Source of the DNA: an uncultured virus (IMG/VR IMGVR_UViG_3300047673_000294)
Lineage: Duplodnaviria; Heunggongvirae; Uroviricota; Caudoviricetes
Direction: 5' to 3' (one strand)
IMG/VR virus record: IMGVR_UViG_3300047673_000294
DNA: 64,000 nucleotides
Shown here: piece by piece, positions 37,257 through 61,257 of the stretch
Position numbering within the stretch: the first letter of the stretch is position 1
How the letters are laid out: the number at the start of each line of letters is the position of its first letter
Notes under the pieces: generated by a model
Database searches by the model: none
Told to the model about the DNA's origin: nothing
The model's input: the letters and a program-made list of their open reading frames with translations, nothing else
Translations under genes and position numbers: made by a program

Positions 37257-37460
37257 TCAGGCGGCGTCGGCTTGGCGGATGAGGCGGAGGTGTCGGCGCT
37301 TGGCGGAGAGGCTCGGGTCTGCGTGCCACTGCCAGCCGCTGAGAGCGTCGAGGAGGTCCGTCCGGTGCTGCGCCTGCTCCTCGGGTGTCCAAGGGGTCGT
37401 GGAGGGCCGTGTAGGGCGTACAGGGATGGCTTCCTGCATGAGGCGCTCGTACGGGTTCAT
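37257..37460 (-). CDS. small hypothetical protein
   Basis: MNPYERLMQEAIP; coupled to rep. Confidence 0.6.
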   Translation of the reverse strand: MNPYERLMQEAIPVRPTRPSTTPWTPEEQAQHRTDLLDALSGWQWHADPSLSAKRRHLRLIRQADAA

Positions 37461-38260
37461 GAGGCGGTCCTCTCGGCTCGGTGTTCGCAGCGGGCGTGGA
37501 CGGTGCGTCCGGGCCGTCTCGGGTCGGGGAGGATCGGCCGCTCGCAGACCGCGCAGTGGTGCCACGTGGTGTGGTCGTCTGGGTCTTCCTGGATCTCGAT
37601 GCGTCTTTCGGGAGCGCCTACTACCTGAGGTTGGAAACCGACCTCAGCCCGTTCTTGGGTAATCCCTGGGAACCCCCCTGGGTTGTTCGGGCCGCGGTGG
37701 CCCGAACCGGTCGGGCCGCGGTGGCCCGAACTCATACGGGCCGCGGTGGCCCGAACTTCTTCGTCCGTACCGTCGGTAAGTTCGGGCCGCGGTGGCCCGT
37801 TGTGGTTCGGGCCGCGGTGGCCCGAACTTTCGTCGTCGTCAGACCACGGGGCAGAGTCCTTGCCGGGTGTCCGGCCGGTGCCGCGGAGGTAGTCCTCGGC
37901 GGCTTGCCAGTCCGGGAACGGCGACACGACGAGCGCGTACCGGGTGGCCTTGCCGCGCTTGCGTTCACCGAGGACGCGGACGACGCCGGCGCGGATCGCA
38001 GCCTCCAGATAGCGGCGGGCATCCTTCTCCCGGCAGCACGAGGCGACGGCGATGTCGGTGATGCGGATGGGCTTGCGGTCGCCGCTGAACGCGACCTCGC
38101 CGGACGCGTTGGCGAAGTTCCGCAGCTGGCACAGGAGCAGGGGCAGGCCCGACCGTCGTAGGTAGGCGGACATCTGGCGCGTCCACTTCCACGAGAGGGC
38201 GTTGCCGTAGGCCACCGGCACGCTGCCGGGGGCTCGGGTCTCCTGCTCGTCTGTGCTCAA
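37457..38260 (-). CDS. putative replication initiator (wHTH N-terminus, internal iterons)
   Basis: ITDIA...EKDARRYLEAAIRAG.V...G.ATRY wHTH; internal repeats; C-terminal CAVC...HARC. Confidence 0.65.
   Translation of the reverse strand: MSTDEQETRAPGSVPVAYGNALSWKWTRQMSAYLRRSGLPLLLCQLRNFANASGEVAFSGDRKPIRITDIAVASCCREKDARRYLEAAIRAGVVRVLGERKRGKATRYALVVSPFPDWQAAEDYLRGTGRTPGKDSAPWSDDDESSGHRGPNHNGPPRPELTDGTDEEVRATAARMSSGHRGPTGSGHRGPNNPGGFPGITQERAEVGFQPQVVGAPERRIEIQEDPDDHTTWHHCAVCERPILPDPRRPGRTVHARCEHRAERTAS
37686..37826. repeat. five 17-bp iterons CGGGCCGCGGTGGCCCG (putative origin)
   Basis: exact copies at 37688, 37712, 37737, 37783, 37808. Confidence 0.85.
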
Positions 38261-38311: not shown

Positions 38312-39616
38312 CTATTCGGTGAGCGGGTACTCGTCGAGGCGCTGCATGCCGGGCTTGCCGTCGAAGAGGTTCGGCTTGAGGTGCACGCGGCAGCCGGCCT
38401 CGCGGGCTTGGGCGACGATGCGGGCGACCCACTCGAAGGGCGGGGCGAAGCCGGGCACGGTGCCGGACGGCTGCTGCGTCTGGGTCTGGGCGCCGATGAC
38501 GACCCAGTCGAACATCGACAGGTCGGTGAACTCCAAGGGCTCCAGGAGCGGTTCGAGGGAGAGCCACTTGACGGCGCCGCGGATCTCGCGGAAGGCGCGC
38601 TCGGCGATCCGTACGCGCTTCTGCTCGTCGACGGAGGTGCCGACCCAGGCGCCGGGCGGCATGTCGAGGCCGACGTACCGGTCGGGGAACTTGGTGAGGA
38701 GGATGTACTGCCACTCGGGGGAGGCGAGCATGGAGGCGTGGACGCGGGTGATCCACTCGTCGGGGACCCAGCGGCCGTAGAGGTCGGCCATGGAGCAGAC
38801 GAAGACGCGCTTCCATGCGGGGTCGTCGCGGTGTTCGGCGGGGATGGTGGTGTTGGCGGGGGCATCGAGGCGCTGCTCGTGGAAGAGCGGCGTGAAGCCG
38901 ACGGGGTAGGCGGCCTTGAGGCGCTCGCTGGTGGCGAGTTCGCGGGCGTAGCAGTAGGTGCAGCCGTGGAGGCATCCGGTGACGGGGTTCCAGGACCAGT
39001 TGGCCCAGGAGATGCCGGCGCCGGGGGTGCTGTTGAAGGTGGCCTTCGACTGGGGCTTGGGGTAGGGGACTTCGTTGCCGGTGTGGGTGCGGAGGGTGAG
39101 CATGACGGGCTCGGGCCGCGGGCGGGCGGGCGTGGTCGGCGGGGTGACCGTGCGCTCGAATGCGGGCTCGGCAGGCTGTACCCAGTCCTGCCCCGCGAAC
39201 AGGTCCTCGTCCGACGGCGGCGCGGACTGCCGCACTGGCTGGGTGTACGTTTTTCCGTCGATCCCTTGCACCGGAGGTCGGGCAGGTGACCCACCTCCGG
39301 TAGGAAATGGGTCACCTGCGAGGTCGCGTCGGACGGTTTCCCGCGGTGTCGCGGTCACCGCTGCAATGGCGCGGACACTGAGCCCGGACTCGGCGAGCGA
39401 TGCCACCACCTCTCGCCGTTCCTCGCGTGGCAGGGCGAGCCGTGAGGTGCCGAACTCGGCGGCGCAGTAGGCGTCCCAGGATTCGTAGCCGAGAGCGGCC
39501 CAGGCGCGGGAGGTGTAGGCCTCGCGGATCATCTGCCATGTGCCTTCGACTGCGACTTTGATTCGGTCGGTCAGGGTGCGGGCCTGGTCCGCGGAAGGGA
39601 TTGCGATGTCGGTCAT
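38312..39616 (-). CDS. DUF5131 (Gp37/Gp68-like, CxxxCxxC) protein with N-terminal HTH domain
   Basis: WNPVTGCLHGCTYCYA, VFVCSMADL, LLTK, WVGTSV, WLSLEPLL, DWVVIG. Confidence 0.85.
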   Translation of the reverse strand: MTDIAIPSADQARTLTDRIKVAVEGTWQMIREAYTSRAWAALGYESWDAYCAAEFGTSRLALPREERREVVASLAESGLSVRAIAAVTATPRETVRRDLAGDPFPTGGGSPARPPVQGIDGKTYTQPVRQSAPPSDEDLFAGQDWVQPAEPAFERTVTPPTTPARPRPEPVMLTLRTHTGNEVPYPKPQSKATFNSTPGAGISWANWSWNPVTGCLHGCTYCYARELATSERLKAAYPVGFTPLFHEQRLDAPANTTIPAEHRDDPAWKRVFVCSMADLYGRWVPDEWITRVHASMLASPEWQYILLTKFPDRYVGLDMPPGAWVGTSVDEQKRVRIAERAFREIRGAVKWLSLEPLLEPLEFTDLSMFDWVVIGAQTQTQQPSGTVPGFAPPFEWVARIVAQAREAGCRVHLKPNLFDGKPGMQRLDEYPLTE

Positions 39617-39846
39617 CAGTTGGGCTTCCCGTGGATTTCACAGTGGCATGGGTGGCAGACGGCGGACATGTTTTCCGGGACGTCGAACGTTCCCCAGGGC
39701 GGGTATTTCCAGTGGTGCGGTTCGGTCGGCGGCCGGGTTTTGCAGCGTTCGCAAATGCCGTCTGCTCGCTCGAAGACGACAGCTCTAACCGCGAGGAACT
39801 TGGGATGCCGGAGGTACTCGCGGTAGGTGCGGTAGGGCTGCTCTAC
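39616..39846 (-). CDS. HNH endonuclease domain lacking a canonical start codon
   Basis: ICERC...PHH..Y...ENMSAVCHPCHCEIH; codon after AGGAGG is GTA. Confidence 0.65.
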   Translation of the reverse strand, partial: VEQPYRTYREYLRHPKFLAVRAVVFERADGICERCKTRPPTEPHHWKYPPWGTFDVPENMSAVCHPCHCEIHGKPN

Positions 39847-40790
39847 GCGACGTCCTCCTCTCCCTTGACCAGTTCGAAAGGGAGCGCCGGGTTCTCCCGC
39901 TCGCGCAGCTCGCTCTTGGTGAGGATCAGTCGGTCGCACAGCCGGGCGAACTTCTCGCGGTCCTTCCGAAACCAGGCGAATTCGTAGTCGTGCGGCTCGC
40001 TGGTGGCAGTGAATGCGTCGGCCGCGAGGCGCTCTTCCTCTTCGCGCCACTTGAGCGGGGCGCTGAAGAGGTACGCCCACTGCGCTGCGTCCCGGGCGAA
40101 GGCGACGAGCATCAGGTCGTGTCGGTTCGGCAGGAAGTCGGTGATGCTGCCGATGAGCCCGTACCACTCGCTGCGCGCGCTGACGGACGACGTTGCCTGA
40201 GCGTTCTCGTCGCGTTCGAATGGGCTGCGCTTGATTCCCGAGACGTTGAATCCGAGGCAGGAAAGCGTTCGCACGCCCTTCGTCATGCCTTCGAGGCGTC
40301 CCGTAAAGCGGCGGTCCATCGCCCATTCGGTGATGCTGTTCGGGTCGTTCAGGACCAGCGTCACGTCTTCGCGGTGGATGTGCTTGGTGCCGGCTTCACG
40401 TCCGTCCCAGTTCCATGCGCGTACTTCGGCGTTTCCTGAGTGCCAGCGGTTTTCGCTGGTCCGCTGGTATCCGAGTGCGGGCAGTTGCCTGGTCAGGTTC
40501 TCCAGGAGTGCGGCGTAGGTCTCCGGGTTCTTCTCGTAGAGGTCGACGATGACGGGCTTCTTCGACCGGGCTGCTTGCGCGGCGAGGATTCCGGGAGAAC
40601 AGGCGTCTTCCCAGGGCGCGTCGTACGCCGTGGCTCCGTTCCCGGCGGTGAGGTCGATCCAGTACAGGCGCTTGACCCAGTGGAGTAGCGGCGCGTTGGC
40701 GGCGCGGCGTTCCTTGCCGACGAACTCGCGCATGATCGCGTGCTTGATCGGGGTGTGGTGGCTGGTGCCGACGTCCATGCGCTTAGCCAT
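39843..40790 (-). CDS. TcmP-like (three-Cys-motif partner) SAM-dependent methyltransferase-fold protein
   Basis: HTPIKH..., YWIDLTAGNG, SPGI, LYEKN, LNDPN; neighbour of DUF5131. Confidence 0.7.
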   Translation of the reverse strand: MAKRMDVGTSHHTPIKHAIMREFVGKERRAANAPLLHWVKRLYWIDLTAGNGATAYDAPWEDACSPGILAAQAARSKKPVIVDLYEKNPETYAALLENLTRQLPALGYQRTSENRWHSGNAEVRAWNWDGREAGTKHIHREDVTLVLNDPNSITEWAMDRRFTGRLEGMTKGVRTLSCLGFNVSGIKRSPFERDENAQATSSVSARSEWYGLIGSITDFLPNRHDLMLVAFARDAAQWAYLFSAPLKWREEEERLAADAFTATSEPHDYEFAWFRKDREKFARLCDRLILTKSELRERENPALPFELVKGEEDVA

Positions 40791-40887
40791 TGGAGTCCCG
40801 TTCGTATGGGTGCTGGTGGGGATGAGTGCGCGTGATGGCGCGGTCGTGCATCCGCCGATATCGACGGGCTTCCCACGCCTCAATGAT

Positions 40888-40954
40888 GCCACATGAATGT
40901 GGCCACATGGGAGTCTCTTGATTGGAGGGGCGGAGCGGGCTTCCATGTGGCCAC
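40888..40954. promoter_or_regulatory. operator array between TcmP-like gene and divergent HTH
   Basis: GCCACAT-GA-ATGTGGC, palindrome ATGTGGCCACAT at 40897-40908, second ATGTGGCCAC at 40945. Confidence 0.65.
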
Positions 40955-40976
40955 CCCGATGTGCGAACATGTCGAC

Positions 40977-41204
40977 ATGCCCGCCACCGAGGAGACCGTC
41001 GCCGCACTGCGCAAGGCCGTGCGCGCCAAGAAGACGGCCGAGGACCGCGCCACCGCGGCCCGCAACGCGCTCGCCGTCGCCATGACCGACGCCATCCACG
41101 CCGGCGTGAAACAGGGCGAGGTCGTTACCATCACGGGGCTGACGCGCGAGCACGTTCGCCGGCTGGTCCGCGAGGTCGAGGAACAACGCGCCTCCCAGTC
41201 CTGA
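40977..41204 (+). CDS. small HTH regulator
   Basis: QGEVVTITGLTREHVRRLVR. Confidence 0.75.
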   Translation: MPATEETVAALRKAVRAKKTAEDRATAARNALAVAMTDAIHAGVKQGEVVTITGLTREHVRRLVREVEEQRASQS

Positions 41205-41354: not shown

Positions 41355-41528
41355 TCAGAAGAGGCCGTCGAGCGCGTCGACCACGGCCTCGACGCCGAGT
41401 TGGCCGAACCAGACGACAGCGGCAGCCACGGCGCCTGCCGCGAGCCACCACGGCTCGGAAGCGGTGAAGATCGCGGCCACGGCACCGGCCACGAGACCCG
41501 CCACAACGCCGGCCAGGAAGCGGGCCAT
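41355..41528 (-). CDS. small membrane protein
   Basis: two TM helices; coupled to vWA gene. Confidence 0.6.
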   Translation of the reverse strand: MARFLAGVVAGLVAGAVAAIFTASEPWWLAAGAVAAAVVWFGQLGVEAVVDALDGLF

Positions 41529-42217
41529 CAGCGGACGATCCCGGCCGTGCGGGCGGCGGTCAGCCACTGCGCGAACTCGCCCGTCAACCCGTCGTACAGC
41601 GCCGTGTCCGTGACGCGGTGCGGGTCGCGGGCGTGGAAGAACGACGCGTTGTCCACCGCCCGGCCGCCGAGCGTGTCGAGTTCCTCCAGGAACTGGATGT
41701 TGTTCCCGAAGCCGACGAACGCGAAGAACACTGGCTGCTTCGATGCTTCCCGCAGCGCGGCGACCGCGGCCGGCCGGGAGTCGGGTTCGCCGTCCGTCTG
41801 GAAGATCACCAGTGCGGGCGCCGGGTTGCCGTGGTGGAGGTCGACGACGTAGTCGATGGCCGCGGCGTAGTTCGTGGAGCCCCAGCCGACCGCGGTGTGG
41901 GTGCGGTTGATGACGCCCTGATAGTCGTCGAGGCGGGCGTCGGCCGCCTGTGTGACTCGGGTGCCGAAGTAGATGAGCGGGACCTGTCCGTCGTCGTCGA
42001 GGTTGGCGGACAGGCCCAGCGCCTGTTCGGCGAGGCGCTGCACGGAGCCGTTGCGGTAGAAGCCGGTCATGCTGCCGGAGTGGTCGAGGACGAGGTAGAC
42101 CGCGGCGCGCTGCCCGGTGAGGCCCGACTTCTCCAGGGAGACGGCGGCGGTTTTGACGAGGTTGACCAGGCCGGACGGGACGTCGGTGGCGGTGGTGGTC
42201 TTACGGAAGAGGCTCAT
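41528..42217 (-). CDS. vWA-domain protein (Ter-type stress-cluster vWA)
   Basis: MIDAS LVLDHSGSM, GSTNY, IFQTDG, FLEELD...VDNA.FF. Confidence 0.85.
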   Translation of the reverse strand: MSLFRKTTTATDVPSGLVNLVKTAAVSLEKSGLTGQRAAVYLVLDHSGSMTGFYRNGSVQRLAEQALGLSANLDDDGQVPLIYFGTRVTQAADARLDDYQGVINRTHTAVGWGSTNYAAAIDYVVDLHHGNPAPALVIFQTDGEPDSRPAAVAALREASKQPVFFAFVGFGNNIQFLEELDTLGGRAVDNASFFHARDPHRVTDTALYDGLTGEFAQWLTAARTAGIVR

Positions 42218-42285
42218 CGTGGTCTCCTTGGGTTGGGCCCCGCCGCAACTCGACTGCGGCGGGGCGCTGCTGGTGCGGAGGGTGG

Positions 42286-42723
42286 TCAGCGGACGTACTC
42301 GTCCTGCCGCTCCTGCTCGCGGCGCCGCTTGTACTCCTTCAGCTCGCCCTCACTGGGCTTGGCCGCCATCAGCACGTCGAGGGAGGCGTCCGGGCGCATC
42401 GGGCCCTGCCCGACCTCGTCGAACGTGCCGTCGATCTGACGGCCGCGGTACATGGCACGGCGTGCCTCGACCAGAGCGGCGGCGTCCTCGTCGGTCCGTG
42501 CGACTTCGCAGCCGGTGACGCGGACCTTGACCTGCGCGGCCTTGTCCTCGTCCTCCGCGTGACCCGTGTAGGACTTCGAGGTGAGTTCGACGATCGCGTA
42601 GACGACCGTGCCGGGCTTCTCGAAGAGGCCGCGTCGCTGCTCGCGGGTCATCGACGCTTCGACAGCTGCGGCCGCCGCGTCGAGCTTGACCTCGGGGACG
42701 TCTGCGGGGCTGAGCTTGGGCAT
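42286..42723 (-). CDS. hypothetical protein
   Basis: coupled ORF, 145 aa. Confidence 0.65.
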   Translation of the reverse strand: MPKLSPADVPEVKLDAAAAAVEASMTREQRRGLFEKPGTVVYAIVELTSKSYTGHAEDEDKAAQVKVRVTGCEVARTDEDAAALVEARRAMYRGRQIDGTFDEVGQGPMRPDASLDVLMAAKPSEGELKEYKRRREQERQDEYVR

Positions 42724-43340
42724 TACAGGGTTCCGTTCTGGTAGGCGTCGGCCGCGTCGGCGGCCTGCTGGGCGAGGGCGGCCTCGGCCGGTCGGCGCTG
42801 GCGGTTGCGCTCGCGGTCCCGGTCACAGGTGCGGCAGCGGCGTCCTCGGCCGGCGATGATCCGCGTGTTCTCCTGATCGAATTCGTGGCCCTTTGCGCAG
42901 TGGGTTTTACTGCGGTTCGGTGCACCGATATCGACGGCGCGGAGGGTGTTTTCTCCGCGGCTCACGACTTCCAAATGGTCGGGATTGACGCACAGCTTGT
43001 TGCGGCAGAGGTGGTCGATCGTCAGGCCGTCCGGGATCGGGCCGCGAAGGTTCTCCCAGGCGTACCGGTGAGACGCGGCGCGGCGCATACGGGCGACGTG
43101 GAACGAGCCGTATCCGCTGGGGATCGTGCCTGCTGTCCACTGCCAGCAGCGCCCGGGTACGTCTCCGTGGAGTGGTAGCGGGCCAGCCTTGTCGACCTTG
43201 CTCCAGAACCGGTCCTCGGCGGGCATGCCCACTCGCTGGACAAGGCGTTCGCCCTGTAGGAGTAGAACCCTGTAGTGCTTTCCGCAAAGCCCGCGGTGCT
43301 TTGCTGATGCGTCACAGCTTTCGCTCTGACAGGTATTCAT
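42723..43340 (-). CDS. HNH homing endonuclease
   Basis: RFWSKVDK, CWQW, SHRYAW, IDHLCRNKLCVNPDHL, THCAKGHEF. Confidence 0.9.
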   Translation of the reverse strand: MNTCQSESCDASAKHRGLCGKHYRVLLLQGERLVQRVGMPAEDRFWSKVDKAGPLPLHGDVPGRCWQWTAGTIPSGYGSFHVARMRRAASHRYAWENLRGPIPDGLTIDHLCRNKLCVNPDHLEVVSRGENTLRAVDIGAPNRSKTHCAKGHEFDQENTRIIAGRGRRCRTCDRDRERNRQRRPAEAALAQQAADAADAYQNGTL

Positions 43341-51646: not shown

Positions 51647-51775
51647 GGGTGGCTAGGCTGGTGTCATATGACCCAGGGGTACGGCGTGTGACGGGGAGGT
51701 CGCGCGCTGCATAGCTTTGCGCCACGCTTCTACTTTCGCTTGCAAAAAGTAGAACCGGTGGGGGAATCTTGCCTC

Positions 51776-52159
51776 GTGGACAACGCCGAGCCCCACCTCG
51801 CCGAGGACTTCCCCCAACTCCTCAAGCGACTCAAAGACGAGTACAAGGTCACCGAGCAACAGATCGGTGACGCAATCGGCGTGCACGGATCCACCGTGAA
51901 CTTCTGGGTGAACCGCAAGCGCAAGCCTCGGCCGACCGCACTGCGCGCCCTCGCGAAGGCCTACCCGAAGTTCACCGAAGCGGAGCTCTTCGCGGCGACC
52001 GACCGCGCAACCCCCGGCGACCTCGGCCCCGACGCCGAAGAGCGGATCCTCGGCCTCATCCGCGGGCTCACGGCCGAGCAGCAGCATGCGCAGGAGGCTC
52101 AACTCCGCGCGCTGAACGAGTGGAACAAGGCGAACGAGGGCCGGTCGGCAAAGTCCTGA
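51776..52159 (+). CDS. immunity repressor (CI-like XRE HTH)
   Basis: VTEQQIGDAIGVHGSTVNFWVNRKRKP; TTGCAA-18-GAATCT then leaderless GTG. Confidence 0.8.
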   Translation: MDNAEPHLAEDFPQLLKRLKDEYKVTEQQIGDAIGVHGSTVNFWVNRKRKPRPTALRALAKAYPKFTEAELFAATDRATPGDLGPDAEERILGLIRGLTAEQQHAQEAQLRALNEWNKANEGRSAKS

Positions 52160-52354: not shown

Positions 52355-52603
52355 ATGTGTGTACGCGTCCGATTCTCCTCGCGCGCCACACCCCGCATCT
52401 ACGATCCAGCCACCCGCACGATCACGCTGCCGGCCGCCCTGACTCCCGCGCACAGCGTCGTCGTCATTCGCGCCGTTCTGTCTGAACTCGCCGTCGTCCA
52501 GCCCATGTTCGGTGCACGCTGCTGGTGTGGGGAGCGGGTGATGCTGCTCCCTCGCGTCCCCGAGCAGCGTAGGAGCGAGCAGGTGATCAAGCATGGAGCG
52601 TAG
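52355..52603 (+). CDS. small hypothetical protein upstream of integrase
   Basis: GGGGG RBS; MCVRVRF...ARCWCGE. Confidence 0.55.
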   Translation: MCVRVRFSSRATPRIYDPATRTITLPAALTPAHSVVVIRAVLSELAVVQPMFGARCWCGERVMLLPRVPEQRRSEQVIKHGA

Positions 52604-52638
52604 CCACCACGCCCCAACCACCCACGCGGAGGTGCACG

Positions 52639-53931
52639 ATGCCGCGTAGGGCGCAGAACAACCCACGGCAGGTCCCGAGCCGAAGCTGCGGCTGCCCCGT
52701 CTGCCTGGAGAAGTACCCGCCGGGGCAGTACGGCGAGCGGCGCCCCCGGCGGGACTGCACCGGAGCCTGGCAGGCCCGGTACCGAGACCCGTCCGGGAAG
52801 CAGAAGTCGAAGAACTACACCATCGCCGACGGCGGGAAGAAGGCGGCCGAGGCGTTCCTCGACCGGACCCGCACCGAGGTCCGTGAGCGGACGTACCGCA
52901 ACCCCGAGCGCGGGAAGATCACGCTCGCCGCCTGGTGGGAGGAGTTCTGGGAGGTCGAGCAGGAGAAGGTGTCCACCACCACCCGGAACCGCAAACTCGG
53001 CATCTGGACCAAGCACATCCAGCCGGCGTGGGGCGACTACCCGCTGAACAAGCTGGAGTACATGGCCCTCCAGAAGTGGCTCACCGCCAGGGTGAAGGGG
53101 TGGGAGACGCAGAAGAAGACGAAGGAGCTGCTCTTCGCCCTTCTCGACGCGGCCATCAAGGACGGGGAGCGGATCACCACCAACCCGGCGACGCACCTGA
53201 CGATGACGGCGACGAAGCCGGTAAAGCACCCGGACGACCTGAAGCCGCCGACGGCCGCGCAGTACGACCTCATCCACGCAGCCCTGCCCGAGTACTACCA
53301 GCGCATCTTCCGCGATTTTGCCTATGAGACAGCAATGCGGCCCGGCGAGGTGGCCGGCGCCCGGCTGCACTGCCTCGACGAGGACGAGCGCGTCCTGTAC
53401 ATCAAGGAGATCCTCATCAGCGACGGCGGGCGTCTGCTGCGGCAGGCGAAGCCGAAGACGGAGGCCGGGTACCGGGCGGTGCCGCTCACGCCGACGGCGT
53501 GGGATGCGGTGCAGTGGATGGTCGAGAGGTGGAAGCCTGCGAAGACTCGGTCTGCCATCGGTGATGGTACGGACGTGCAGTTGAAGGAGCTGATCTTCCG
53601 GGGGCCGCGGGGCGCGGCTCTGAACATCAACAACATTCGGCGCCCGTGGCGGCGTGCGTGCGTGCAGGCGGGTGTGGCGCGCATGGTGGTCGATCCGGAG
53701 ACGGGCAGGCCCGAGTGGTGGCCGCGGCCGTATGAGTACCGGCATGACGTGACCAGCCGTCTGCATCATGCCGGTGTCAAGGAGGTCGACGCGCAGCGGT
53801 TCCTCGGTCAGAAGCGTGGCGGCAAGGTGACGTGGATCTACACGCACGAGAGTGAGGGTGCGCGGGAGAACGTGCGGGATGCGCTGACCAGGGGCGAGCC
53901 GTCGGTTAGTGGACTCCGGGCCGTGGAGTGA
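52639..53931 (+). CDS. int: tyrosine integrase
   Basis: WQARYRDPSG arm-binding N-terminus; TAMRPGE, PKT, YEYRH, LGQ, WIYTH catalytic motifs. Confidence 0.92.
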   Translation: MPRRAQNNPRQVPSRSCGCPVCLEKYPPGQYGERRPRRDCTGAWQARYRDPSGKQKSKNYTIADGGKKAAEAFLDRTRTEVRERTYRNPERGKITLAAWWEEFWEVEQEKVSTTTRNRKLGIWTKHIQPAWGDYPLNKLEYMALQKWLTARVKGWETQKKTKELLFALLDAAIKDGERITTNPATHLTMTATKPVKHPDDLKPPTAAQYDLIHAALPEYYQRIFRDFAYETAMRPGEVAGARLHCLDEDERVLYIKEILISDGGRLLRQAKPKTEAGYRAVPLTPTAWDAVQWMVERWKPAKTRSAIGDGTDVQLKELIFRGPRGAALNINNIRRPWRRACVQAGVARMVVDPETGRPEWWPRPYEYRHDVTSRLHHAGVKEVDAQRFLGQKRGGKVTWIYTHESEGARENVRDALTRGEPSVSGLRAVE

Positions 53932-56477: not shown

Positions 56478-57239
56478 TCACTTCTTCTCGAGCGCGGTGA
56501 CGCGCTTCTCCAGGGCGGTGAGCCGCTGGTCGGTGGTCAGCGGCGGCTTCGGGGCCGGGCCCGGGAGTGGGGCGGGGAGAGTGACCGGCTTCGACCACGA
56601 GGCGGGGTGCGTCAGCCGCTCGGCGACGTCGAGCCGGAGCTGGCTCATGGTGAAGGTGAACTTGCCGCGGGTGCCGTACCCCTCGACCGGCCCGGCCGGG
56701 TCGATCTTCCCCTCGACCGAGGTCTCCAGGTGCCCGGCGACGGAGCCCGATCCCCAGCCGTGGTGGCGGCAGATCGCAGCGTTCCAGCGGACCCACGCGT
56801 CGTACTGCGCCCGCGTGTACACGTCGCGGCCGTTGCCGAGGTTCTCGGTCTCGATGCCGTACAGCTGGTCGTTGCCGTCGACCGTGCTCGACTTGTCCTG
56901 CTTGGGCAGTGCCTTCTCGGCGGTGATCGCCGCCATGACGTTGGCGGCGGCGAGGCCGGCGTGGTTGGCGCGGTGGCAGGAGACCAGCACGGCGATGCCC
57001 GACTTGGGCAGGAACGTGTGGCAGAGCGGCGGCGGGAGGCTGGGGGCCCCGGCGGTGGCCACGGTCTTCAGCGAGTCGGACCCGGCCGTGTGGTGGTTGA
57101 GGACGCCGTGGACCGGGCCGAAGGTCTTGCCGGTGGCGGCGTCGCGTCCGCTGGTTTCCCAGCCGTGGAACTCGGTGAAGCGGACGCCCTCCGCCTTCAG
57201 CGCCGCGCGCCATTCGGCCGCGGACATGGGTGTGGCCAT
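56478..57239 (-). CDS. endolysin, amidase (different subfamily from prophage A)
   Basis: GVLNHHTAG, RANHAG, YGIETEN, VAGHLE, KIDP. Confidence 0.88.
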   Translation of the reverse strand: MATPMSAAEWRAALKAEGVRFTEFHGWETSGRDAATGKTFGPVHGVLNHHTAGSDSLKTVATAGAPSLPPPLCHTFLPKSGIAVLVSCHRANHAGLAAANVMAAITAEKALPKQDKSSTVDGNDQLYGIETENLGNGRDVYTRAQYDAWVRWNAAICRHHGWGSGSVAGHLETSVEGKIDPAGPVEGYGTRGKFTFTMSQLRLDVAERLTHPASWSKPVTLPAPLPGPAPKPPLTTDQRLTALEKRVTALEKK

Positions 57240-57301
57240 GCGGACTCCAGACATAAGAAAGGCCCCGGCCTGGAGGCGCGGGGCGGCAGGTGAGGGGCGG
57301 G

Positions 57302-57511
57302 TCAGGGAATCTCGGGCTGCGGGGCGAGCAGCGTTGCGGAGACGAGCGTCATCGGCTGCTTGCAGAGGCCGCACTCGACGATCACGCGGCCGCCGTTGGA
57401 GTAGCACGGGTTGACCTCGAACTCCCTGCCCGAGTTCTCCTCGCACTCCGCGTTGTCGTCCCGGGCGGTGACCGAGTACCAGAGCGCGGGCTGGAACGTC
57501 ACGTCGCTCAT
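57302..57511 (-). CDS. small Cys-containing tail-associated protein
   Basis: VECGLC; ATGA coupled. Confidence 0.55.
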   Translation of the reverse strand: MSDVTFQPALWYSVTARDDNAECEENSGREFEVNPCYSNGGRVIVECGLCKQPMTLVSATLLAPQPEIP

Positions 57512-58254
57512 GAGCCGACCACCCACCAGTTCACGAAGGTCGCGGTGGTGTTGGTACGGGTCACCCATACGGTGAGGCCCGTCGAGGTCACAGACGTGGC
57601 GCTCGCGCCGGTGACCTGCGACCCGGGCGCAGCCGTGCTGGCCACCGCGTAGCCGAGGAACGTCGCCCCTTGGACGCTGAGGCCGGTGACGTTTATCGAC
57701 GTGGGCGCGTTCGCAGCGCTCGGAGTGATGCTGACCTGCCCGAACGCCAGGCTCCCCGCGCTCAGGACGCCGCTCACGTCGAGGTTGCACGGGCCGCCGC
57801 TCTCGGCCTGCATGTACACGTAGGGCGCATTGCCCGCGAACGTCGACTCCAGCGTGATGATGGCGCGATGCTGGCTGGCTTTCACCGATCCGGAGGTGAG
57901 GATCAGGTCGGTGTACTGGTCAGCGTCGGAGGCGTAGGTGACGGAGGCGGGGACATCGACTCGGTCGTCCTCGACGGGCCGGAACTGCAGCTGTCCCGAG
58001 GACAGGAGGGCGGCCATGTTGATCGGGTCCTGGAGTCCGCGGGTCCACAGGCCGCCGCCGCTGTCGCCGCCGGCGTCCGGGCCGAGTTCGGCGAGCAGGG
58101 TGGTGCCGTCGTCCGCGTACACGCGGAGGGTGCCGACACTCGCGGCGCCCATACGTCGGGCTGCCCGCAGCTCTCGCACCTCGCGCTCCAGCACGGACAG
58201 TCGGCGGGCCAGGCTGGTCGCGTCAGGCGGCAGCTGGTCGAGCTGTCGGGGCAT
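57508..58254 (-). CDS. minor tail protein
   Basis: N-terminal coiled coil LARRL..LERE, beta-rich C-terminus. Confidence 0.7.
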   Translation of the reverse strand: MPRQLDQLPPDATSLARRLSVLEREVRELRAARRMGAASVGTLRVYADDGTTLLAELGPDAGGDSGGGLWTRGLQDPINMAALLSSGQLQFRPVEDDRVDVPASVTYASDADQYTDLILTSGSVKASQHRAIITLESTFAGNAPYVYMQAESGGPCNLDVSGVLSAGSLAFGQVSITPSAANAPTSINVTGLSVQGATFLGYAVASTAAPGSQVTGASATSVTSTGLTVWVTRTNTTATFVNWWVVGS

Positions 58255-59336
58255 CAGTCCTCCTCCACGATGATCGGCCGGATCCGGTCGGTGCCGGCGT
58301 CGAGTTCCCAGCTCCAGCAGCGGGCCGAGACCGAGGCGCCGTTCGGGTGGCGGGGGGATGTCTCGACTGCGAGGCGGATGGTGTCGCCGAGCGCCCAGTC
58401 CTGGCCGAGTCGGGGCGCCTGAGAGGCGGTGGCCTCAAGGGTCCACACCTGTGCTCCCTGCGCCATGAGTGCCAGAGACTGGGTGGCGTGCGCGTCGAGC
58501 TGGTCGGGGTCGGTGAGGCCCGTGGCGGGGGTGTAGCGGTACTCCCAGCGAGGCCAGCCGGTCGCGATGAGTGCGGTCGCCTCGTGGGCGGTCGAGGTGA
58601 GGCGGGAGCTGCCCTCGCCCTCGCCGCGGGCCAGGACGACGGTCGCGCCCTTGCCCGCCTCGTAGGACTCGGACAGGCGATACGAGGCGACGCAGCCCGG
58701 GAAGTCGAATGTGACGGGCAAGCTGGACTGCAGGCCGACTGCTGGCCGAACACGGAAGGGGAACTGGAAACCGCTGTGGCTGGCGTTCCAGGCGATGTCG
58801 ATCGTCCACTCCGGGCCGCCGTCCAGGCCCATGATCTCCTGCAGGCACGACAGGATGCTTTTGTCGTCGCCGTCCTGCGTGTAGTAGTCCATGACGACGC
58901 CCGTGCTCGGGGCGTCGATGACGAGCGGCGGACCATCGGTGAGCGCTGGGGTGACGAGGGCGCTGACAACGGCCGCCTGGTCCGTGCCGACGAGGGTCTG
59001 CGTTCCGGGGAACCGGCCGTCGAGGTACCGCTCCAGGGTGGCGGCGCCCATCTGCACGGTCTGGTCACTGCCTCCGTCGCGCGGCAGGACGACACCGGCC
59101 CACAGCGGGGTGTCCGTGGCGGTGTCGACGGCGACGAGGAGCGTCCTCCCCGGCGCGGTCGCGGCGTCCCACCCGGCGGGGGCGCCGGGCAGGTTGAGGT
59201 CGAACTGCAGAGTGGTCGACTCGCCGATTTTCCGCGACAACGCACCCGAGGGCTTGAGGGAGGGGAGGTCCTCGACAATGCCGCCGGTCCGCAGGTCGCA
59301 GCCGTACCAGGCGAGTTGGTAGGGCGTGCCTGTCAT
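58254..59336 (-). CDS. minor tail protein (Tal/Gp37-like)
   Basis: DLRTG.IVEDLP, PLWAG, ARGEGEG, WALGD. Confidence 0.75.
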   Translation of the reverse strand: MTGTPYQLAWYGCDLRTGGIVEDLPSLKPSGALSRKIGESTTLQFDLNLPGAPAGWDAATAPGRTLLVAVDTATDTPLWAGVVLPRDGGSDQTVQMGAATLERYLDGRFPGTQTLVGTDQAAVVSALVTPALTDGPPLVIDAPSTGVVMDYYTQDGDDKSILSCLQEIMGLDGGPEWTIDIAWNASHSGFQFPFRVRPAVGLQSSLPVTFDFPGCVASYRLSESYEAGKGATVVLARGEGEGSSRLTSTAHEATALIATGWPRWEYRYTPATGLTDPDQLDAHATQSLALMAQGAQVWTLEATASQAPRLGQDWALGDTIRLAVETSPRHPNGASVSARCWSWELDAGTDRIRPIIVEED

Positions 59337-60364
59337 GTCGCCGACTCGTAGACGCCGGTCATGCGCAGCTGGTTGGTGCTCGCGAAAGTCTCCGGCCGGG
59401 TCGGGTTCATGACGTCGATGCGCGTGTTGGTCGAGGAAATGTTGAAGAACGCGCCGATCGCACTCGCTCCGGGCGAGACGATCGCCTGCCCCATCCATCG
59501 GTCTGTGCCGAGGAAATGCGCGCTCATGACGTAGCTGCACCCGACACTGGCCGCAGCGAACGGGATCGCCCAGTTGTACGTCCCCGACCCGTAGGTCGTC
59601 GTGCTGCCGGGGATCAGGTTGATGTGGATGGTGACCTGCCGTCCGATCTTGCAATAGCGTCCGACGAGTGTGCCGTTGCCCAGGCTGGGGTTGCTGCCGG
59701 AGCCCGTCCACGTCGGCGTGTACGAGGTCCAGGCGCCCGGCGCTTTGACGTAGGTGTCCCAAGCGGAGCCGTTCCAGCGGAGCAGGTCGGTGCCGTTGTC
59801 GTAGAACTGCCCGGTGTACGGGCTGGACGGGGCTGTCGACGAGGGCAGGATGCCGCCCGGGGCCGTCGTGTACGGCCTGACTGACGTGCTCACGGAAGCG
59901 GTGGAGCCGTTCGACACGGACAGGACCGAGATGGTGGCGAGCGGCATGTAGATCTGCGTGCCCGCCGGCGTCGGCGCCACCGGCGACGCGGACGGAGTGC
60001 CCGCCAGGTAGACGATGTCGCCCTTGGCGAGGCCGGAAGCGTCGACACTGTTGTCCCAGACGCGCAGGTAGACGAGGTCGATGCGGTTCAGGGTGGCGTG
60101 CGCGGCCGTGTATGTGCCGGGCGACACCGAGGACGGGAGAGCGACCCGGTAGACGCCCTGGCCGCTGTAGGCGACAGCGGCCACGCCGGCCGAGCAGTTG
60201 ATCGTCGTTCCGGCCAGCGTGACGGTCAGGCCGGGGTCGCCGGGCCGAACACCCGACCGGGAGCCGAGCGCGGTCGCGTCGGTCATGATGTCCATCGCCC
60301 CGGCGTTGCGGGCCTCCAGGCCGGAGAAGGTCAGCGTGTCGATGGCCCATACGTCTACTGGCAT
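59333..60364 (-). CDS. minor tail / receptor-binding protein
   Basis: NRIDLV, WTSYTPTW...GNGTLVGRY. Confidence 0.7.
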   Translation of the reverse strand: MPVDVWAIDTLTFSGLEARNAGAMDIMTDATALGSRSGVRPGDPGLTVTLAGTTINCSAGVAAVAYSGQGVYRVALPSSVSPGTYTAAHATLNRIDLVYLRVWDNSVDASGLAKGDIVYLAGTPSASPVAPTPAGTQIYMPLATISVLSVSNGSTASVSTSVRPYTTAPGGILPSSTAPSSPYTGQFYDNGTDLLRWNGSAWDTYVKAPGAWTSYTPTWTGSGSNPSLGNGTLVGRYCKIGRQVTIHINLIPGSTTTYGSGTYNWAIPFAAASVGCSYVMSAHFLGTDRWMGQAIVSPGASAIGAFFNISSTNTRIDVMNPTRPETFASTNQLRMTGVYESAT

Positions 60365-60374
60365 ATCTGCCTCC

Positions 60375-61244
60375 TCACATCCAGGCCGAACGCCACGTGG
60401 CGGTCAGCGTCGCGCTTGCGTTGTAGGTGCTGGACTGGAACTGGTAGTTGACCGTCGAGCCCGCCGGGATGGTGGGCCAGCCTGCGGACACCGTCATGAA
60501 CCGGCGCCTGCTCACGCCGCCGTTGAGGACCACCGTGTGTGCGTCGGTGTCGATGACGAGGCTGTCGCCGCTGGCCAGGTCGAGCGAGTAGGCGAGTTGC
60601 CGGACCGTGCCGTCCGGGTACAGGGCGGACACGGTGGGCGCGACGACGGGCCCGGCGATCGTGATGATCGGCCGGGTGTCCAGCGAGCCCGAGTTGACCG
60701 CGTTGATCTGCCCGGACACCGTCACCGCCGAGAAGGCCACCGGGAAGGTGACCGGGAACGTCAGGCCGCCGGTCGTGGCGGGCAGCCCGGTCGTGCCGGT
60801 CTGCAAGGTGGTGCCGTACCGGCGAGGATCGGCAGCCGTCACGAGGACCGACCAGGTCGCGGTCCGGTCGGTGACGTACTGGGCCAGCAGCTTCCCCGAC
60901 CGCCTCACGGTCGCCTGCTTGGGCGTGGTCTCCCACACCGTCAGCGTCGTGTCCGTCAGGGCGGCCGCCGCGTACAGCTGGTCCAGCGCGGTATCGAGGG
61001 AGACCCGGTCCGGGGCCTCCACCGTGCCGGCCAGGGTGACGGGCCGGGACCCGAGATAGACCGGCGCCGCCCACGAGCCGTGATCCGCCTCCCGCTCCTG
61101 GACCTCGGCCCGCACCTCCGCGCTGTCCCAGCCCTCGAGGGACTGCAGGAACCAGGCCACCCCCACTGCGTCGACCGCGCCGAGGCGGAGTGTGCCGAGG
61201 GTGGCCTGCCGGCCGTCGATGTCCGTTCCTGGGGTGTAGGCCAC
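60375..61244 (-). CDS. distal tail (Dit-like) protein
   Basis: LEGWD, R.VTL.G, AADPRRYG, TFPVTFP, N.G...P.ITIAGP. Confidence 0.8.
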   Translation of the reverse strand: MAYTPGTDIDGRQATLGTLRLGAVDAVGVAWFLQSLEGWDSAEVRAEVQEREADHGSWAAPVYLGSRPVTLAGTVEAPDRVSLDTALDQLYAAAALTDTTLTVWETTPKQATVRRSGKLLAQYVTDRTATWSVLVTAADPRRYGTTLQTGTTGLPATTGGLTFPVTFPVAFSAVTVSGQINAVNSGSLDTRPIITIAGPVVAPTVSALYPDGTVRQLAYSLDLASGDSLVIDTDAHTVVLNGGVSRRRFMTVSAGWPTIPAGSTVNYQFQSSTYNASATLTATWRSAWM

Positions 61245-61257
61245 CCGTCGCCTCCTC

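What the first reader, a model, noticed from the sequence alone, without database searches (positions are those of the whole stretch)
38312..41204. Candidate DNA modification/restriction system: TcmP-like methyltransferase + HNH + HTH-fused DUF5131 radical-SAM-like protein
Seen: three tightly coupled ORFs with their own divergent repressor and operators, and visibly more A/T-rich codons from about 39150 to 40900 than in the flanks. Motifs are IDLTAGNG (SAM-binding-like), CxxC...HH...CxxCH (HNH) and CLHGCTYC (CxxxCxxC). Established: TcmP and DUF5131 genes co-occur in mobile DNA; to my knowledge their chemistry is unresolved. Unusual here are the nuclease between them and the DNA-binding domain fused to DUF5131. 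Inference: a two-enzyme base-modification pathway protecting phage DNA, with an HNH that cuts unmodified competitor or host DNA, or a prophage anti-phage system.
Basis: partly seen in the sequence, partly recalled or inferred. Interest (0 to 1): 0.82.

Follow-up and report, generated by a model that had tools for sequence, protein, structure and literature searches.

The report
Phage radical-SAM cassette with frameshifted nuclease
A prophage carries a self-contained three-enzyme, DNA-directed cassette of unknown chemistry whose small nuclease has no start codon and is probably made only as a tail on the preceding methyltransferase-like protein, when the ribosome slips back one base.

Summary
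On the minus strand of a high-GC actinobacterial prophage lie three genes. The first encodes a 315-aa SAM-methyltransferase-fold protein (39843-40790). The second is a 75-aa HNH domain (39616-39843). The third is an HTH-fused DUF5131 radical-SAM enzyme (38312-39616). A small divergent HTH-like gene (40959-41204) and two conserved TGTGGCCACA palindromes sit upstream.

The first protein matches no family model. It is only a remote TcmP relative, with an RlmJ-like fold. The DUF5131 core is closest in fold to spore photoproduct lyase.

The HNH has no usable start codon and lies in the -1 frame behind a slippery C_CCU_UUC (39882-39876). Of 16 related loci with that arrangement, 14 carry such a heptamer; of 17 loci in the same frame with their own start, 1 does. 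Thirteen further loci are plain in-frame fusions. dN/dS is 0.02-0.32. This indicates a programmed -1 frameshift that makes a methyltransferase-like::HNH fusion.

This HNH subfamily is followed by DUF5131 in 44 of 44 testable loci. The methyltransferase-like body is swapped as a cassette.

The function is untested. It is most likely DNA modification coupled to cleavage, RM-like or anti-restriction. The parent TcmP-DUF5131 pair is an untested PADLOC candidate (PDC-M30/M41). This scan had already noted the frameshift on other DNA.

The parts
40959..41204 (+). Small divergent gene (81 aa from ATG 40959; alternative ATG 40977); putative HTH regulator of the cassette.
   Evidence: ORF. GC3 0.89. Only sub-threshold HTH hits on residues 46-76: KORA E 0.052, HTH_28 E 0.091. 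Homologues lie in the same divergent position in L026 (85% identity), L077/L079 (74-76%), L075, L078 and L050.
40791..40958 (.). Divergent intergenic region with palindromes ATGTGGCCACAT (40897-40908), CATGTGGCCACC (40944-40955) and degenerate ATGATGCCACAT (40883-40894); candidate operators.
   Evidence: Repeats found. Both sites are invariant blocks against L026 while the flanks diverge. The window-wide count is not above chance. No sigma-70-type promoter was found.
39843..40790 (-). Gene for a 315-aa SAM-methyltransferase-fold protein, a remote TcmP relative (family A1). Motif I is D46-L-T-A49-G50, motif II is E86, motif IV is N148-D149-P150-N151.
   Evidence: 226 homologues, none with a Pfam domain among the 120 listed. 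Invariant residues. AF2 pLDDT 89.2. RlmJ at Z 15.1-13.2. Atlas TM 0.62-0.63 to TcmP clusters. TIGR04474 at 12.9 bits.
39876..39882 (-). Slippery heptamer C_CCT_TTC in the zero frame, at the conserved Leu-Pro-Phe; proposed -1 frameshift site.
   Evidence: CCT is 26 of 437 Pro codons in window genes. The same heptamer sits at the same place in 12 related loci.
39616..39875 (-). The -1 frame continuation: an 11-aa Arg-rich linker (RTGQGRGGRRV), then the 75-aa HNH domain (39619-39843), then stop TGA 39618-39616. It has no canonical start codon.
   Evidence: PHROG HNH families at E 1.6e-8. The nearest in-frame start is GTG 39939-39937, with a 97-nt overlap.
38312..39616 (-). Gene for a 434-aa protein. 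It has an N-terminal helical HTH domain (aa 9-99; tri-helical HTH at 64-99), a disordered linker (aa 105-156) and a DUF5131 radical-SAM core (aa ~171-434) with CxxxCxxC at C215-C222 (38951-38974).
   Evidence: Pfam DUF5131 E 1e-36. PADLOC PDC-M41B E 4.4e-35 and PDC-M30B E 6.4e-33. AF2 pLDDT 80.9. Spore photoproduct lyase at Z 13.9-12.9. The N-terminal domain is 52% identical to a stand-alone 'DNA binding protein' of Mycobacterium abscessus prophages.

Best explanation
This is an exchangeable accessory cassette in the early (recombination/replication) region of a temperate actinobacterial phage.

Regulation (inferred). A small divergent HTH protein probably controls the cassette through two TGTGGCCACA palindromes.

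Expression (anatomy shown, products inferred). The operon yields a 315-aa RlmJ-like, SAM-binding transferase, a remote TcmP relative. Through a programmed -1 ribosomal frameshift on C_CCU_UUC it also yields a ~391-aa form of the same protein carrying an HNH nuclease at its C-terminus. The next gene, coupled by a TGATG overlap, encodes a radical-SAM enzyme (DUF5131) that resembles spore photoproduct lyase. It is tethered to DNA by an N-terminal HTH domain; relatives use a ParB-like domain instead.

Mechanism (inferred). The radical-SAM enzyme and the transferase together place a covalent mark on DNA bases. The nuclease-bearing isoform cuts DNA according to that mark. The phage would thereby protect its own DNA and attack unmarked DNA (RM-like), or escape host restriction. 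The frameshift would set a low nuclease-to-modifier ratio.
For: Anatomy and family assignments.

Folds. The TcmP-like model (pLDDT 89) matches RlmJ at Z 15.1-13.2 over 218-225 residues, against <=12.1 for other class I methyltransferases. Motifs I, II and IV sit at the ends of strands 41-46, 80-85 and 142-148 and are invariant in 35 sequences. The DUF5131 core matches spore photoproduct lyase at Z 13.9-12.9, then RlmN at 11.5.

DNA targeting. HTH helices occupy residues 64-99. The profile of relatives' N-termini hits ParB/Noc structures at E 1e-6.

Pairing. The TcmP-like gene is followed by DUF5131 in 10 of 10 genome loci. True TcmP has DUF5131 adjacent in 12 of 14 loci at E<=1e-5, plus one marginal case.

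Frameshift.
- There is no ATG, GTG or TTG in the HNH frame after the heptamer.
- Of 16 loci with the HNH in the -1 frame and no start within a 60-nt overlap, 14 have an X_XXY_YYZ heptamer (13 CCCTTTY, 1 AAAAAAA). Of 17 -1-frame loci with their own start, 1 has one.
- 13 loci are in-frame fusions, and so is protein P0044.
- The HNH dN/dS is 0.016-0.32 at dS 0.37-1.8.
- CCT is a rare Pro codon, 26 of 437.
- Two DNA runs give identical sequence across the site.

Module unity. DUF5131 follows the HNH in 44 of 44 loci, and a TcmP-type gene precedes it in 60 of 65.

Cassette swap. DNA similarity to L030 resumes at 39935, 53 nt before the heptamer. The transferase body there belongs to a different TcmP variant.
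Against: - There are no experimental data for any step. No modified base, SAM cleavage, nuclease activity or frameshift product has been shown.
- No conserved stimulatory RNA structure was found. The consensus fold has 0 compensatory pairs. The window's downstream hairpin has z -1.94, with 10 of 200 shuffles as good. The GCGGCG...CGCCGC hairpin seen in 7 of 13 loci is absent here.
- The HNH is dispensable to the pair: it is absent in 6 of 10 genome loci.
- Two of the 16 start-less -1 loci lack a heptamer.
- Motif IV is N-D-P-N. It lacks the aromatic residue of the D/N-P-P-Y/F motif (recalled), so methyl transfer to an exocyclic amine is not assured.
- Shared folds do not show function.
- The loci are phylogenetically related, so the counts overstate independence.
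Confidence: 0.5

Rival explanations
1. The cassette is a prophage-carried anti-phage defence system of the PADLOC PDC-M30/M41 kind. It is expressed in the lysogen and acts on incoming phage nucleic acid, rather than marking the phage's own DNA.
For: DUF5131 matches PDC-M41B and PDC-M30B. True TcmP proteins match PDC-M41A and PDC-M30A. These candidates were derived by 'guilt by embedding' in BREX, DISARM and type I RM loci (passages read). The cassette has its own divergent regulator and is swapped between otherwise similar phages, as defence or moron cargo often is. One TcmP gene lies next to the Hna defence gene in S. meliloti (table passage).
Against: The PDC systems are explicitly untested: '145 untested phage defence candidates'. 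The window's first protein does not match any PDC-A model. The cassette sits on the same strand within the early lytic gene block, between recombination and replication genes. That position suits phage DNA-modification genes. This rival is not exclusive of the best explanation.
Confidence: 0.3
2. There is no frameshift. The HNH is translated on its own, from the far upstream GTG (39939-39937, 97-nt overlap) or from a non-canonical codon.
For: A GTG exists in frame 34 codons upstream of the domain. A strong Shine-Dalgarno-like run, AAGGGAGAGGAGGA, lies 6 nt before the GTA codon that overlaps the TAG stop. No stimulatory RNA structure is established.
Against: The GTG is not conserved. Ten related -1 loci have no start codon at all in the open stretch. 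The codons between the heptamer and the domain contain no ATG, GTG, TTG, CTG or ATH. The GTA is a by-product of the overlapping TAG and is absent in L026. In-frame fusions in 13 loci show that the fused protein is a functional form.
Confidence: 0.12
3. The cassette is a DNA-repair module, not a modification system. An SPL-like lyase reverses a photoproduct or other lesion in phage DNA that was packed or dried in soil, helped by a DNA-binding partner and a nicking HNH.
For: The closest solved fold is spore photoproduct lyase, which acts directly on damaged DNA. RadicalSAM.org places DUF5131 in Megacluster-5-2, next to SPL in 5-3 (passage). DUF5131 occurs in 147 phage records. The sequence is held in rhizosphere metagenome runs.
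Against: SPL works without a methyltransferase-fold partner (established knowledge, recalled). The obligatory pairing with a fast-evolving, cassette-swapped TcmP-type protein (37-67% identity where DUF5131 is 70-93%) looks like specificity diversification, not repair. Embedding of canonical pairs in RM, BREX and DISARM loci also argues for conflict systems.
Confidence: 0.1
4. The HNH is a selfish homing endonuclease, or a decaying remnant, that invaded the TcmP-DUF5131 junction and has no role in the pair's function.
For: The HNH is present in only 4 of 10 genome loci of the same TcmP-like family. It is more conserved (76-95%) than the neighbouring TcmP-like gene, as a recently spread element might be.
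Against: It always occupies the same position. DUF5131 follows it in 44 of 44 loci and a TcmP-type gene precedes it in 60 of 65. It is fused in frame in 13 loci. It is under purifying selection, dN/dS 0.016-0.32. All catalytic and zinc-binding residues are invariant.
Confidence: 0.05

Closest known systems
TcmP + DUF5131 ('three-Cys-motif partner' TIGR04474 with PF07505), listed as PADLOC phage defence candidates PDC-M41 and PDC-M30 (Payne et al. 2024, bioRxiv 10.1101/2024.01.29.577857; passages read, supplements closed).
   Same: A methyltransferase-fold protein sits immediately upstream of a CxxxCxxC DUF5131 enzyme on mobile DNA. The DUF5131 part matches PDC-M41B and PDC-M30B. The chemistry is unknown and the candidates are untested.
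   Different: The first protein belongs to a separate, unmodelled family: no PDC-A hit, and 12.9 bits against a cut-off of 53 for TIGR04474. DUF5131 carries an N-terminal DNA-binding domain. An HNH is inserted and linked by a frameshift. A divergent regulator is present.
RlmJ, the 23S rRNA A2030 N6-methyltransferase (PDB 6qe0, 4blv; Pfam RsmJ/DUF519).
   Same: Best structural match of the first protein: Z 15.1-13.2, 218-225 residues aligned, rmsd 3.6-3.8. It shares the class I fold with the same extra elements. Atlas TM is 0.57-0.58.
   Different: Sequence identity is 11-13%, and no sequence-level match was found. Motif IV is NDPN rather than DPPY (the latter recalled). The context points to DNA, not rRNA.
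Spore photoproduct lyase (PDB 4rh0, 4fhe), a radical-SAM DNA lyase.
   Same: Best structural match of the DUF5131 core: Z 13.9-12.9, 217-225 residues aligned. It shares the CxxxCxxC cluster site. DUF5131 neighbours SPL in the RadicalSAM.org megacluster table.
   Different: Identity is 12-15%. DUF5131 needs a TcmP-type partner. The substrate and reaction are unknown.
Programmed -1 ribosomal frameshifts on X_XXY_YYZ heptamers (dnaX, IS3-family orfAB, phage tail-chaperone G/GT; recalled from established knowledge).
   Same: A zero-frame heptamer C_CCU_UUC and a downstream ORF in the -1 frame without a start. Two products share an N-terminal body.
   Different: It joins an enzyme to a nuclease domain. 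No conserved stimulatory structure is shown for this window. It is not in print in the library searched.
Single-chain methyltransferase-nuclease enzymes (type IIG/IIL RM enzymes and MTase-HNH fusions; recalled).
   Same: A SAM-binding transferase fold and a nuclease lie on one polypeptide. This holds for the frameshift product here and for the in-frame fusions in 13 relatives.
   Different: The transferase is RlmJ/TcmP-like rather than a known DNA methyltransferase family. It depends on a radical-SAM partner. No target-recognition domain was identified.

Membership tests
TcmP (NCBIfam TIGR04474) | HMM score at or above the curated cut-off (53 bits) | tested here: not met
   12.9 bits, E 0.079, residues 12-106 only. 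2 of 35 family members match at E<=1, best 0.011.
TcmP (NCBIfam TIGR04474) | Gene adjacent to a DUF5131 / three-Cys gene | tested here: met
   Met in the window itself and in 10 of 10 genome loci of the family. True TcmP: 12 of 14 loci at E<=1e-5, plus one marginal.
TcmP (NCBIfam TIGR04474) | Homology of the whole catalytic body to TcmP | tested here: inconclusive
   hhalign against 12 true TcmP gives probability 13.8%, E 0.002, 87 columns. Atlas structure TM is 0.62-0.63 over 239-240 residues. The bridging variant (L030/L033) matches TIGR04474 at E 3e-9 and 1e-8, and family A1 matches it at probability 51%, E 1.6e-4, 254 columns.
Class I SAM-dependent methyltransferase, RlmJ-like | Rossmann-like fold with motif I, acidic motif II and motif IV at the ends of strands 1, 2 and 4 | tested here: met
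   Z 15.1 to RlmJ-family chains. D46/A49/G50, E86 and N148/D149/N151 are invariant and placed after strands 41-46, 80-85 and 142-148.
Class I SAM-dependent methyltransferase, RlmJ-like | SAM binding and methyl transfer | not testable with these tools
   Biochemistry is needed. The complex/ligand predictor was not available.
DUF5131 (PF07505), radical SAM superfamily | Pfam score over the gathering threshold | tested here: met
   127.1 bits against 28.9, E 1e-36, residues 201-409.
DUF5131 (PF07505), radical SAM superfamily | CxxxCxxC cluster motif and radical-SAM barrel fold | tested here: met
   C215, C219 and C222 are invariant in 41 of 41 sequences. All top folds are radical-SAM enzymes, with SPL at Z 13.9. 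The generic Radical_SAM Pfam model is sub-threshold, at 16.9 against 29.5 bits.
HNH (beta-beta-alpha-Me) nuclease | Match to HNH family models | tested here: inconclusive
   PHROG HNH families phrog_740 (E 1.6e-8) and six further HNH-annotated families. No Pfam family at E<=1 for the 75-aa domain.
HNH (beta-beta-alpha-Me) nuclease | Catalytic His...Asn...His and two Cys pairs for zinc | tested here: met
   C31, C34, H43, H44, N58, C63, C66, H67 and H71 are invariant in 11 of 11 sequences.
PADLOC candidate systems PDC-M41 / PDC-M30 | Both components (A = TcmP, B = DUF5131) match the system's models | tested here: not met
   B is matched (E 4.4e-35 and 6.4e-33). A is not matched by the window protein, by P0055, or by the L030/L033 variant. 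Seven true TcmP controls all match A.
Programmed -1 ribosomal frameshift | X_XXY_YYZ heptamer in the zero frame, before a -1 ORF that lacks a start codon | tested here: met
   C_CCT_TTC lies at 39882-39876. There is no canonical start after it.
Programmed -1 ribosomal frameshift | Conservation of the site, and selection on the downstream frame | tested here: met
   14 of 16 against 1 of 17. dN/dS 0.016-0.32. In-frame fusions in 13 loci.
Programmed -1 ribosomal frameshift | Stimulatory downstream RNA structure | tested here: inconclusive
   0 compensatory pairs. The window hairpin has z -1.94. A GC hairpin 6-7 nt downstream occurs in 7 of 13 loci, not in the window.
Programmed -1 ribosomal frameshift | The trans-frame protein is detected | not testable with these tools
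   Needs western blot or mass spectrometry.
Restriction-modification system | The nuclease cuts DNA lacking the mark that the partner enzyme makes | not testable with these tools
   Only the co-occurrence of a transferase fold and a nuclease on one polypeptide is shown.

The most novel reading that the evidence does not exclude
This is a phage-borne restriction-modification-like system whose protective DNA mark is not a simple methyl group. The mark would be the product of an SPL-like radical-SAM enzyme working with an RlmJ/TcmP-like transferase. A programmed -1 frameshift would fix the ratio of modifier-only to nuclease-bearing enzyme. The swappable transferase body would set the target specificity.
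Probability: 0.2. Interest if true: 0.85.

Novelty: new variant of a known kind. Interest (0 to 1): 0.62.

Why it matters
The TcmP-DUF5131 pair is widespread on mobile DNA. TIGR04474 was found in 39 of 301 sampled genomes of the phylum (3 of the 39 are unpublished genomes G003, G020 and G270). It is catalogued as a defence candidate, yet in the library searched no paper gives it a reaction.

This clade adds three handles that make the problem testable:
- DNA-binding domains on the radical-SAM enzyme, which point to DNA as the substrate.
- A nuclease physically tied to the transferase, which points to a modification-dependent cleavage logic.
- Natural swaps of the transferase body on a constant backbone, which offer a ready-made specificity experiment.

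The frameshift would be a new, conserved recoding site. It joins an enzyme to a nuclease, and natural in-frame and two-gene versions serve as controls.

Tried and rejected
- Sequence search of the TcmP-like profile against PDB chains gave nothing meaningful; the best hit was E 0.13, to protein A repeats.
- tblastn of the TcmP-like protein against 50,697 phage records found no match.
- A search of 401 genomes of the nearest genus found 0 matches at E<=1e-10. This is a sample, not proof of absence.
- The nearest held genome (G001) and virus record (G002) do not carry the cassette; only short chance-level DNA matches were found.
- The sigma-70 promoter scan found 0 sites. It found 1 terminator-like site, inside the TcmP-like gene, against 2.2 expected.
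- RNA evidence. Contigs of the metatranscriptome run X22 cover only the conserved parts (DUF5131 core, HNH, start of the + gene) at 90-99% identity with many differences. They come from relatives and say nothing about expression of this locus. X23 is similar.
- The search for a conserved frameshift-stimulating structure found no covariation.
Physical interaction of the two enzymes is therefore untested.
- Literature. 'DUF5131' appears in 1 paper, a classification table only. 'TcmP' / 'three-Cys-motif partner' appears in 2 relevant papers, as table entries only. PF07505, TIGR04474, 'radical SAM mobile pair' and PDC-M41 gave 0 papers. PDC-M30 gave 2 survey papers, seen in the listing only. Frameshift + HNH + methyltransferase + phage gave 0 papers. 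SPL or RlmJ with phage-defence terms gave nothing relevant in the 15 papers listed.
- My first classification of 'in-frame fusion' by length of open frame was wrong for high-GC DNA; it flagged the window itself. I replaced it with a frame comparison against the upstream tblastn hit.

Full report
CONTEXT. The window has 69% G+C and carries a complete-looking temperate siphophage. It has an integrase (52573-53931, +) and a repressor-like gene (51692-52159). Early genes lie on the minus strand: RecE-like exonuclease, DnaQ-like exonuclease, RuvC, WhiB and an HNH_3 nuclease. Terminase, portal, capsid, tape measure and lysis genes follow. Tail and lysis genes of a second phage-like element start near 56.4 kb. 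The finding lies between the recombination genes and a putative replication-initiator gene. The window's own assembly is not held. The nearest held genome shares 25% of sampled words. Relatives of the proteins come from Streptomyces, Amycolatopsis, Actinomadura and Streptosporangium, and from viral contigs. At least 21 rhizosphere metagenome runs hold the stretch almost completely.

OBSERVATION. The three genes, their motifs and their tight coupling are real.
- The first gene runs 40790-39843 (315 aa).
- The HNH frame ends at TGA 39618-39616, which shares one base with the ATG of the 434-aa DUF5131 gene.
- A small + strand gene (40959-41204) diverges across 168 bp. That spacer contains a perfect 12-bp palindrome, a second copy and a degenerate copy.
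- The palindrome count is not significant window-wide. Both sites are nevertheless invariant in the alignment with a related viral contig, where the surrounding spacer diverges.
- GC falls to 0.62-0.66 between about 39400 and 41000. GC3 is 0.85, 0.78 and 0.80 for the TcmP-like gene, the HNH and the N-terminal domain of the third protein. It is 0.96 for the DUF5131 core.

THE FIRST PROTEIN. It matches no Pfam, PHROG or PADLOC model. It has 226 homologues at E<=0.001. The 120 listed carry no Pfam domain, and the named ones are 'hypothetical protein'. An alignment of 35 members shows 32 invariant residues.

The AlphaFold model is confident (pLDDT 89.2, pTM 0.87). Its best solved matches are RlmJ and a Legionella homologue: Foldseek E 5.5e-8 to 1e-6, and VIA Z 15.1-13.2 with 218-225 residues aligned. 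These stand about 3 Z above other class I methyltransferases. D46/A49/G50, E86 and N148-D149-P150-N151 lie just after strands 41-46, 80-85 and 142-148. Those are the canonical places of motifs I, II and IV (established knowledge of the fold).

The relationship to TcmP is remote.
- TIGR04474 scores 12.9 bits against a cut-off of 53.
- hhalign against 12 true TcmP proteins taken from genomes gives E 0.002 and only 14% probability over 87 columns.
- The ESM Atlas structure search places TcmP clusters at TM 0.62-0.63 over about 240 residues, beside RlmJ at 0.57-0.58. It also returns a 678-aa cluster in which such a fold is fused to an SPL-family radical-SAM domain.
- A second TcmP variant occupies the same position in related phages (L030, L033). 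It matches TIGR04474 at E 3e-9 and 1e-8. Family A1 aligns with it end to end, at probability 51% and E 1.6e-4 over 254 columns.

I therefore call the protein a remote TcmP homologue and positional equivalent, not a member of TIGR04474.

THE THIRD PROTEIN. Residues 201-409 match DUF5131 (E 1e-36) and the PADLOC models PDC-M41B and PDC-M30B. The CxxxCxxC cysteines are invariant in 41 sequences.

The model (pLDDT 80.9) has an N-terminal helical domain with a tri-helical HTH at residues 64-99, a disordered linker, and a well-predicted core. The core's best solved matches are spore photoproduct lyase (Z 13.9-12.9, 217-225 aligned), then RlmN (11.5), viperin and lipoyl synthase. RadicalSAM.org lists DUF5131 as Megacluster-5-2, beside SPL in 5-3.

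Pfam HTH models hit residues 65-99 only below threshold (E 0.02-0.19). The domain is 52% identical to a stand-alone 'DNA binding protein' of Mycobacterium abscessus prophages. In relatives the N-terminus is usually ParB-like, with the motif IDGRNRYRAC. The family profile hits ParB, Noc and Spo0J structures at E 1e-6 to 1e-4. All 53 complete DUF5131 proteins from the related loci, nearly all HNH-linked, are 394-579 aa with such an added N-terminal domain. The DUF5131 core alone occurs in 147 phage records at under 60% identity.

THE HNH AND THE FRAMESHIFT. The HNH frame has no ATG, GTG or TTG between the end of the first gene and the domain. It is the -1 frame relative to that gene. The nearest in-frame start is a GTG 34 codons upstream, which would overlap the first gene by 97 nt. 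The conserved Leu-Pro-Phe near the end of the first gene is encoded CTC CCT TTC. This gives the zero-frame heptamer C_CCT_TTC at 39882-39876. CCT makes up only 26 of 437 proline codons in 18 window genes.

I collected HNH-linked loci from genome, viral and metagenome (80 kept of 102) collections. After removing duplicates there are 80 distinct loci. I classified them by the frame of the upstream TcmP-type tblastn hit:

| Class | Loci |
|---|---|
| Own start within a 60-nt overlap | 33 |
| In-frame fusion | 13 |
| No start at all | 11 |
| Only a far start | 11 |
| No upstream hit | 12 |

- Of the 16 loci with the HNH in the -1 frame and no nearby start, 14 have an X_XXY_YYZ heptamer in the overlap (13 CCCTTTC/T, 1 AAAAAAA). 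L080 and L117 have none.
- Of the 17 -1-frame loci with their own start, 1 has a heptamer (L007).
- Where the HNH has its own start, Leu-Pro-Phe is written with non-slippery codons, for example CTG CCG TTC in L035.
- Protein P0044 of family A1 is also an in-frame fusion.
- The predicted trans-frame junction (...ALPF|RTGQGRGGRRVEQPYRTY...) lines up with the in-frame junctions (...NTPLPFEREPYRSY...).
- Among ten start-less loci, dN/dS of the HNH is 0.016-0.32 at dS 0.37-1.8. The catalytic and zinc residues are invariant. The frame is therefore translated.
- Two DNA runs reproduce the stretch without any difference, so the frame arrangement is not an assembly error. One of the two runs may be the source of the window.

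A stimulatory RNA element is not established. A 6-7-bp GC hairpin lies 6-7 nt downstream in 7 of 13 loci but not in the window. The window's own hairpin has z -1.94. The consensus fold shows no compensatory changes.

These loci are related to each other, so the counts are not independent events.

UNITY OF THE MODULE. This HNH subfamily is followed by DUF5131 in 44 of 44 distinct loci with at least 1.8 kb downstream. It is preceded by a TcmP-type gene in 60 of 65 loci with at least 1 kb upstream. Conversely, the TcmP-like/DUF5131 pair exists without the HNH in 6 of 10 genome loci, so the nuclease is an optional addition.

The DUF5131 core (70-93% identity) and the HNH (61-97%) are far better conserved than the TcmP-like body (34-67%) in the same loci. 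Against L030, a phage with 92% DNA identity in the upstream gene 42273-42742, similarity stops there. It resumes at 39935, 53 nt before the heptamer, and then runs at 82% to the end of DUF5131. In between, L030 carries a different small divergent gene and the other TcmP variant. The constant unit is thus the last ~18 codons of the transferase gene, the slip site, the HNH and DUF5131. The transferase body and its regulator are swapped.

Homologues of the window's small regulator sit divergently upstream in L026, L077/L079, L075, L078 and L050. Neighbours of related loci are mostly phage early genes: YqaJ, ERF, RusA, LexA-type repressor, antirepressor, WhiB and a DnaA/IstB-like loader.

WHAT IS KNOWN. 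True TcmP proteins match PADLOC PDC-M41A and PDC-M30A (7 of 7 tested), and 12 of 14 have DUF5131 next to them. The PDC set comprises 145 untested candidates. I found no paper in the library that assigns a reaction to TcmP or DUF5131, or that reports the frameshift.

Earlier notes of this scan had already described the TcmP::HNH frameshift on other DNA, as well as the RlmJ-like/SPL-like nature and partner swapping of the pair. I read them after reaching the frameshift reading and tested the claims here independently.

MECHANISM.
- Shown: the gene anatomy, the folds, the linkage, the recoding signature and the selection on the HNH frame.
- Inferred: that both isoforms are made; that the radical-SAM enzyme and the transferase act together on DNA bases; and that the HNH isoform cleaves DNA according to the resulting mark.

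I put about 0.7 on the frameshift and about 0.5 on the overall reading of a DNA modification-plus-cleavage cassette. Within that reading an RM-like or anti-restriction role for the phage is somewhat more likely than a pure lysogen-defence role. DNA repair and a selfish HNH are minor rivals.

Noticed in passing
L050 (about 1890-1935) and L107: Two of the 13 in-frame TcmP::HNH fusions also carry C_CCT_TTT at the Leu-Pro-Phe. In L050 a -1 slip would read CCC TTT TGA, an immediate stop. That would be a dnaX-like way to make the short, HNH-less form from a fused gene.
   Followed up: partly
window 41528-42217 (-): A vWA-TerF-like protein (Pfam E 6e-57, phrog_5359) lies in the phage early region just upstream of the cassette. 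It is absent from the closely related L030.
   Followed up: no
window 41355-41567 (-): A 70-aa ORF with a hydrophobic Ala/Val/Gly-rich stretch, possibly a small membrane protein. It overlaps the end of the vWA gene. It has only sub-threshold Pfam hits.
   Followed up: no
window 37457-38260 (-): The gene after the cassette encodes a 267-aa protein with repeated SGHRGPN-like motifs and a C-terminal Cys/His cluster. No family hit was found. In L030 the corresponding position holds an HTH_36 replication-initiator-like protein.
   Followed up: no
window 56478-63999: A second set of phage lysis, minor-tail and tape-measure genes lies beyond the integrase. It is a neighbouring or tandem prophage-like element.
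   Followed up: no
protein P0035 (relative of the TcmP-like family): After the same ...ALPF tail, the C-terminus carries a Cys-rich, zinc-ribbon-like segment in place of the HNH. True long TcmP proteins carry a GMT-like wHTH there (4 of 12). The C-terminal position therefore seems to be a slot for nucleic-acid-binding modules.
   Followed up: partly
ESM Atlas cluster (678 aa) returned for P0001: In this bacterial cluster a TcmP/RlmJ-like fold is fused to an SPL-family radical-SAM domain (PF20903 in 98% of members). This is independent hint that the two enzyme types work as one unit.
   Followed up: no
window 42723-43340 (-): A second, unrelated HNH_3 endonuclease (Pfam E 2.7e-15; phrog_826 E 1e-51) lies 3 kb upstream in the same early operon.
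   Followed up: no
L030 1781-2005 (-): In the phage that carries the other TcmP variant, the divergent upstream gene is a different 75-aa protein with no family hit. The regulator is exchanged together with the transferase body.
   Followed up: partly
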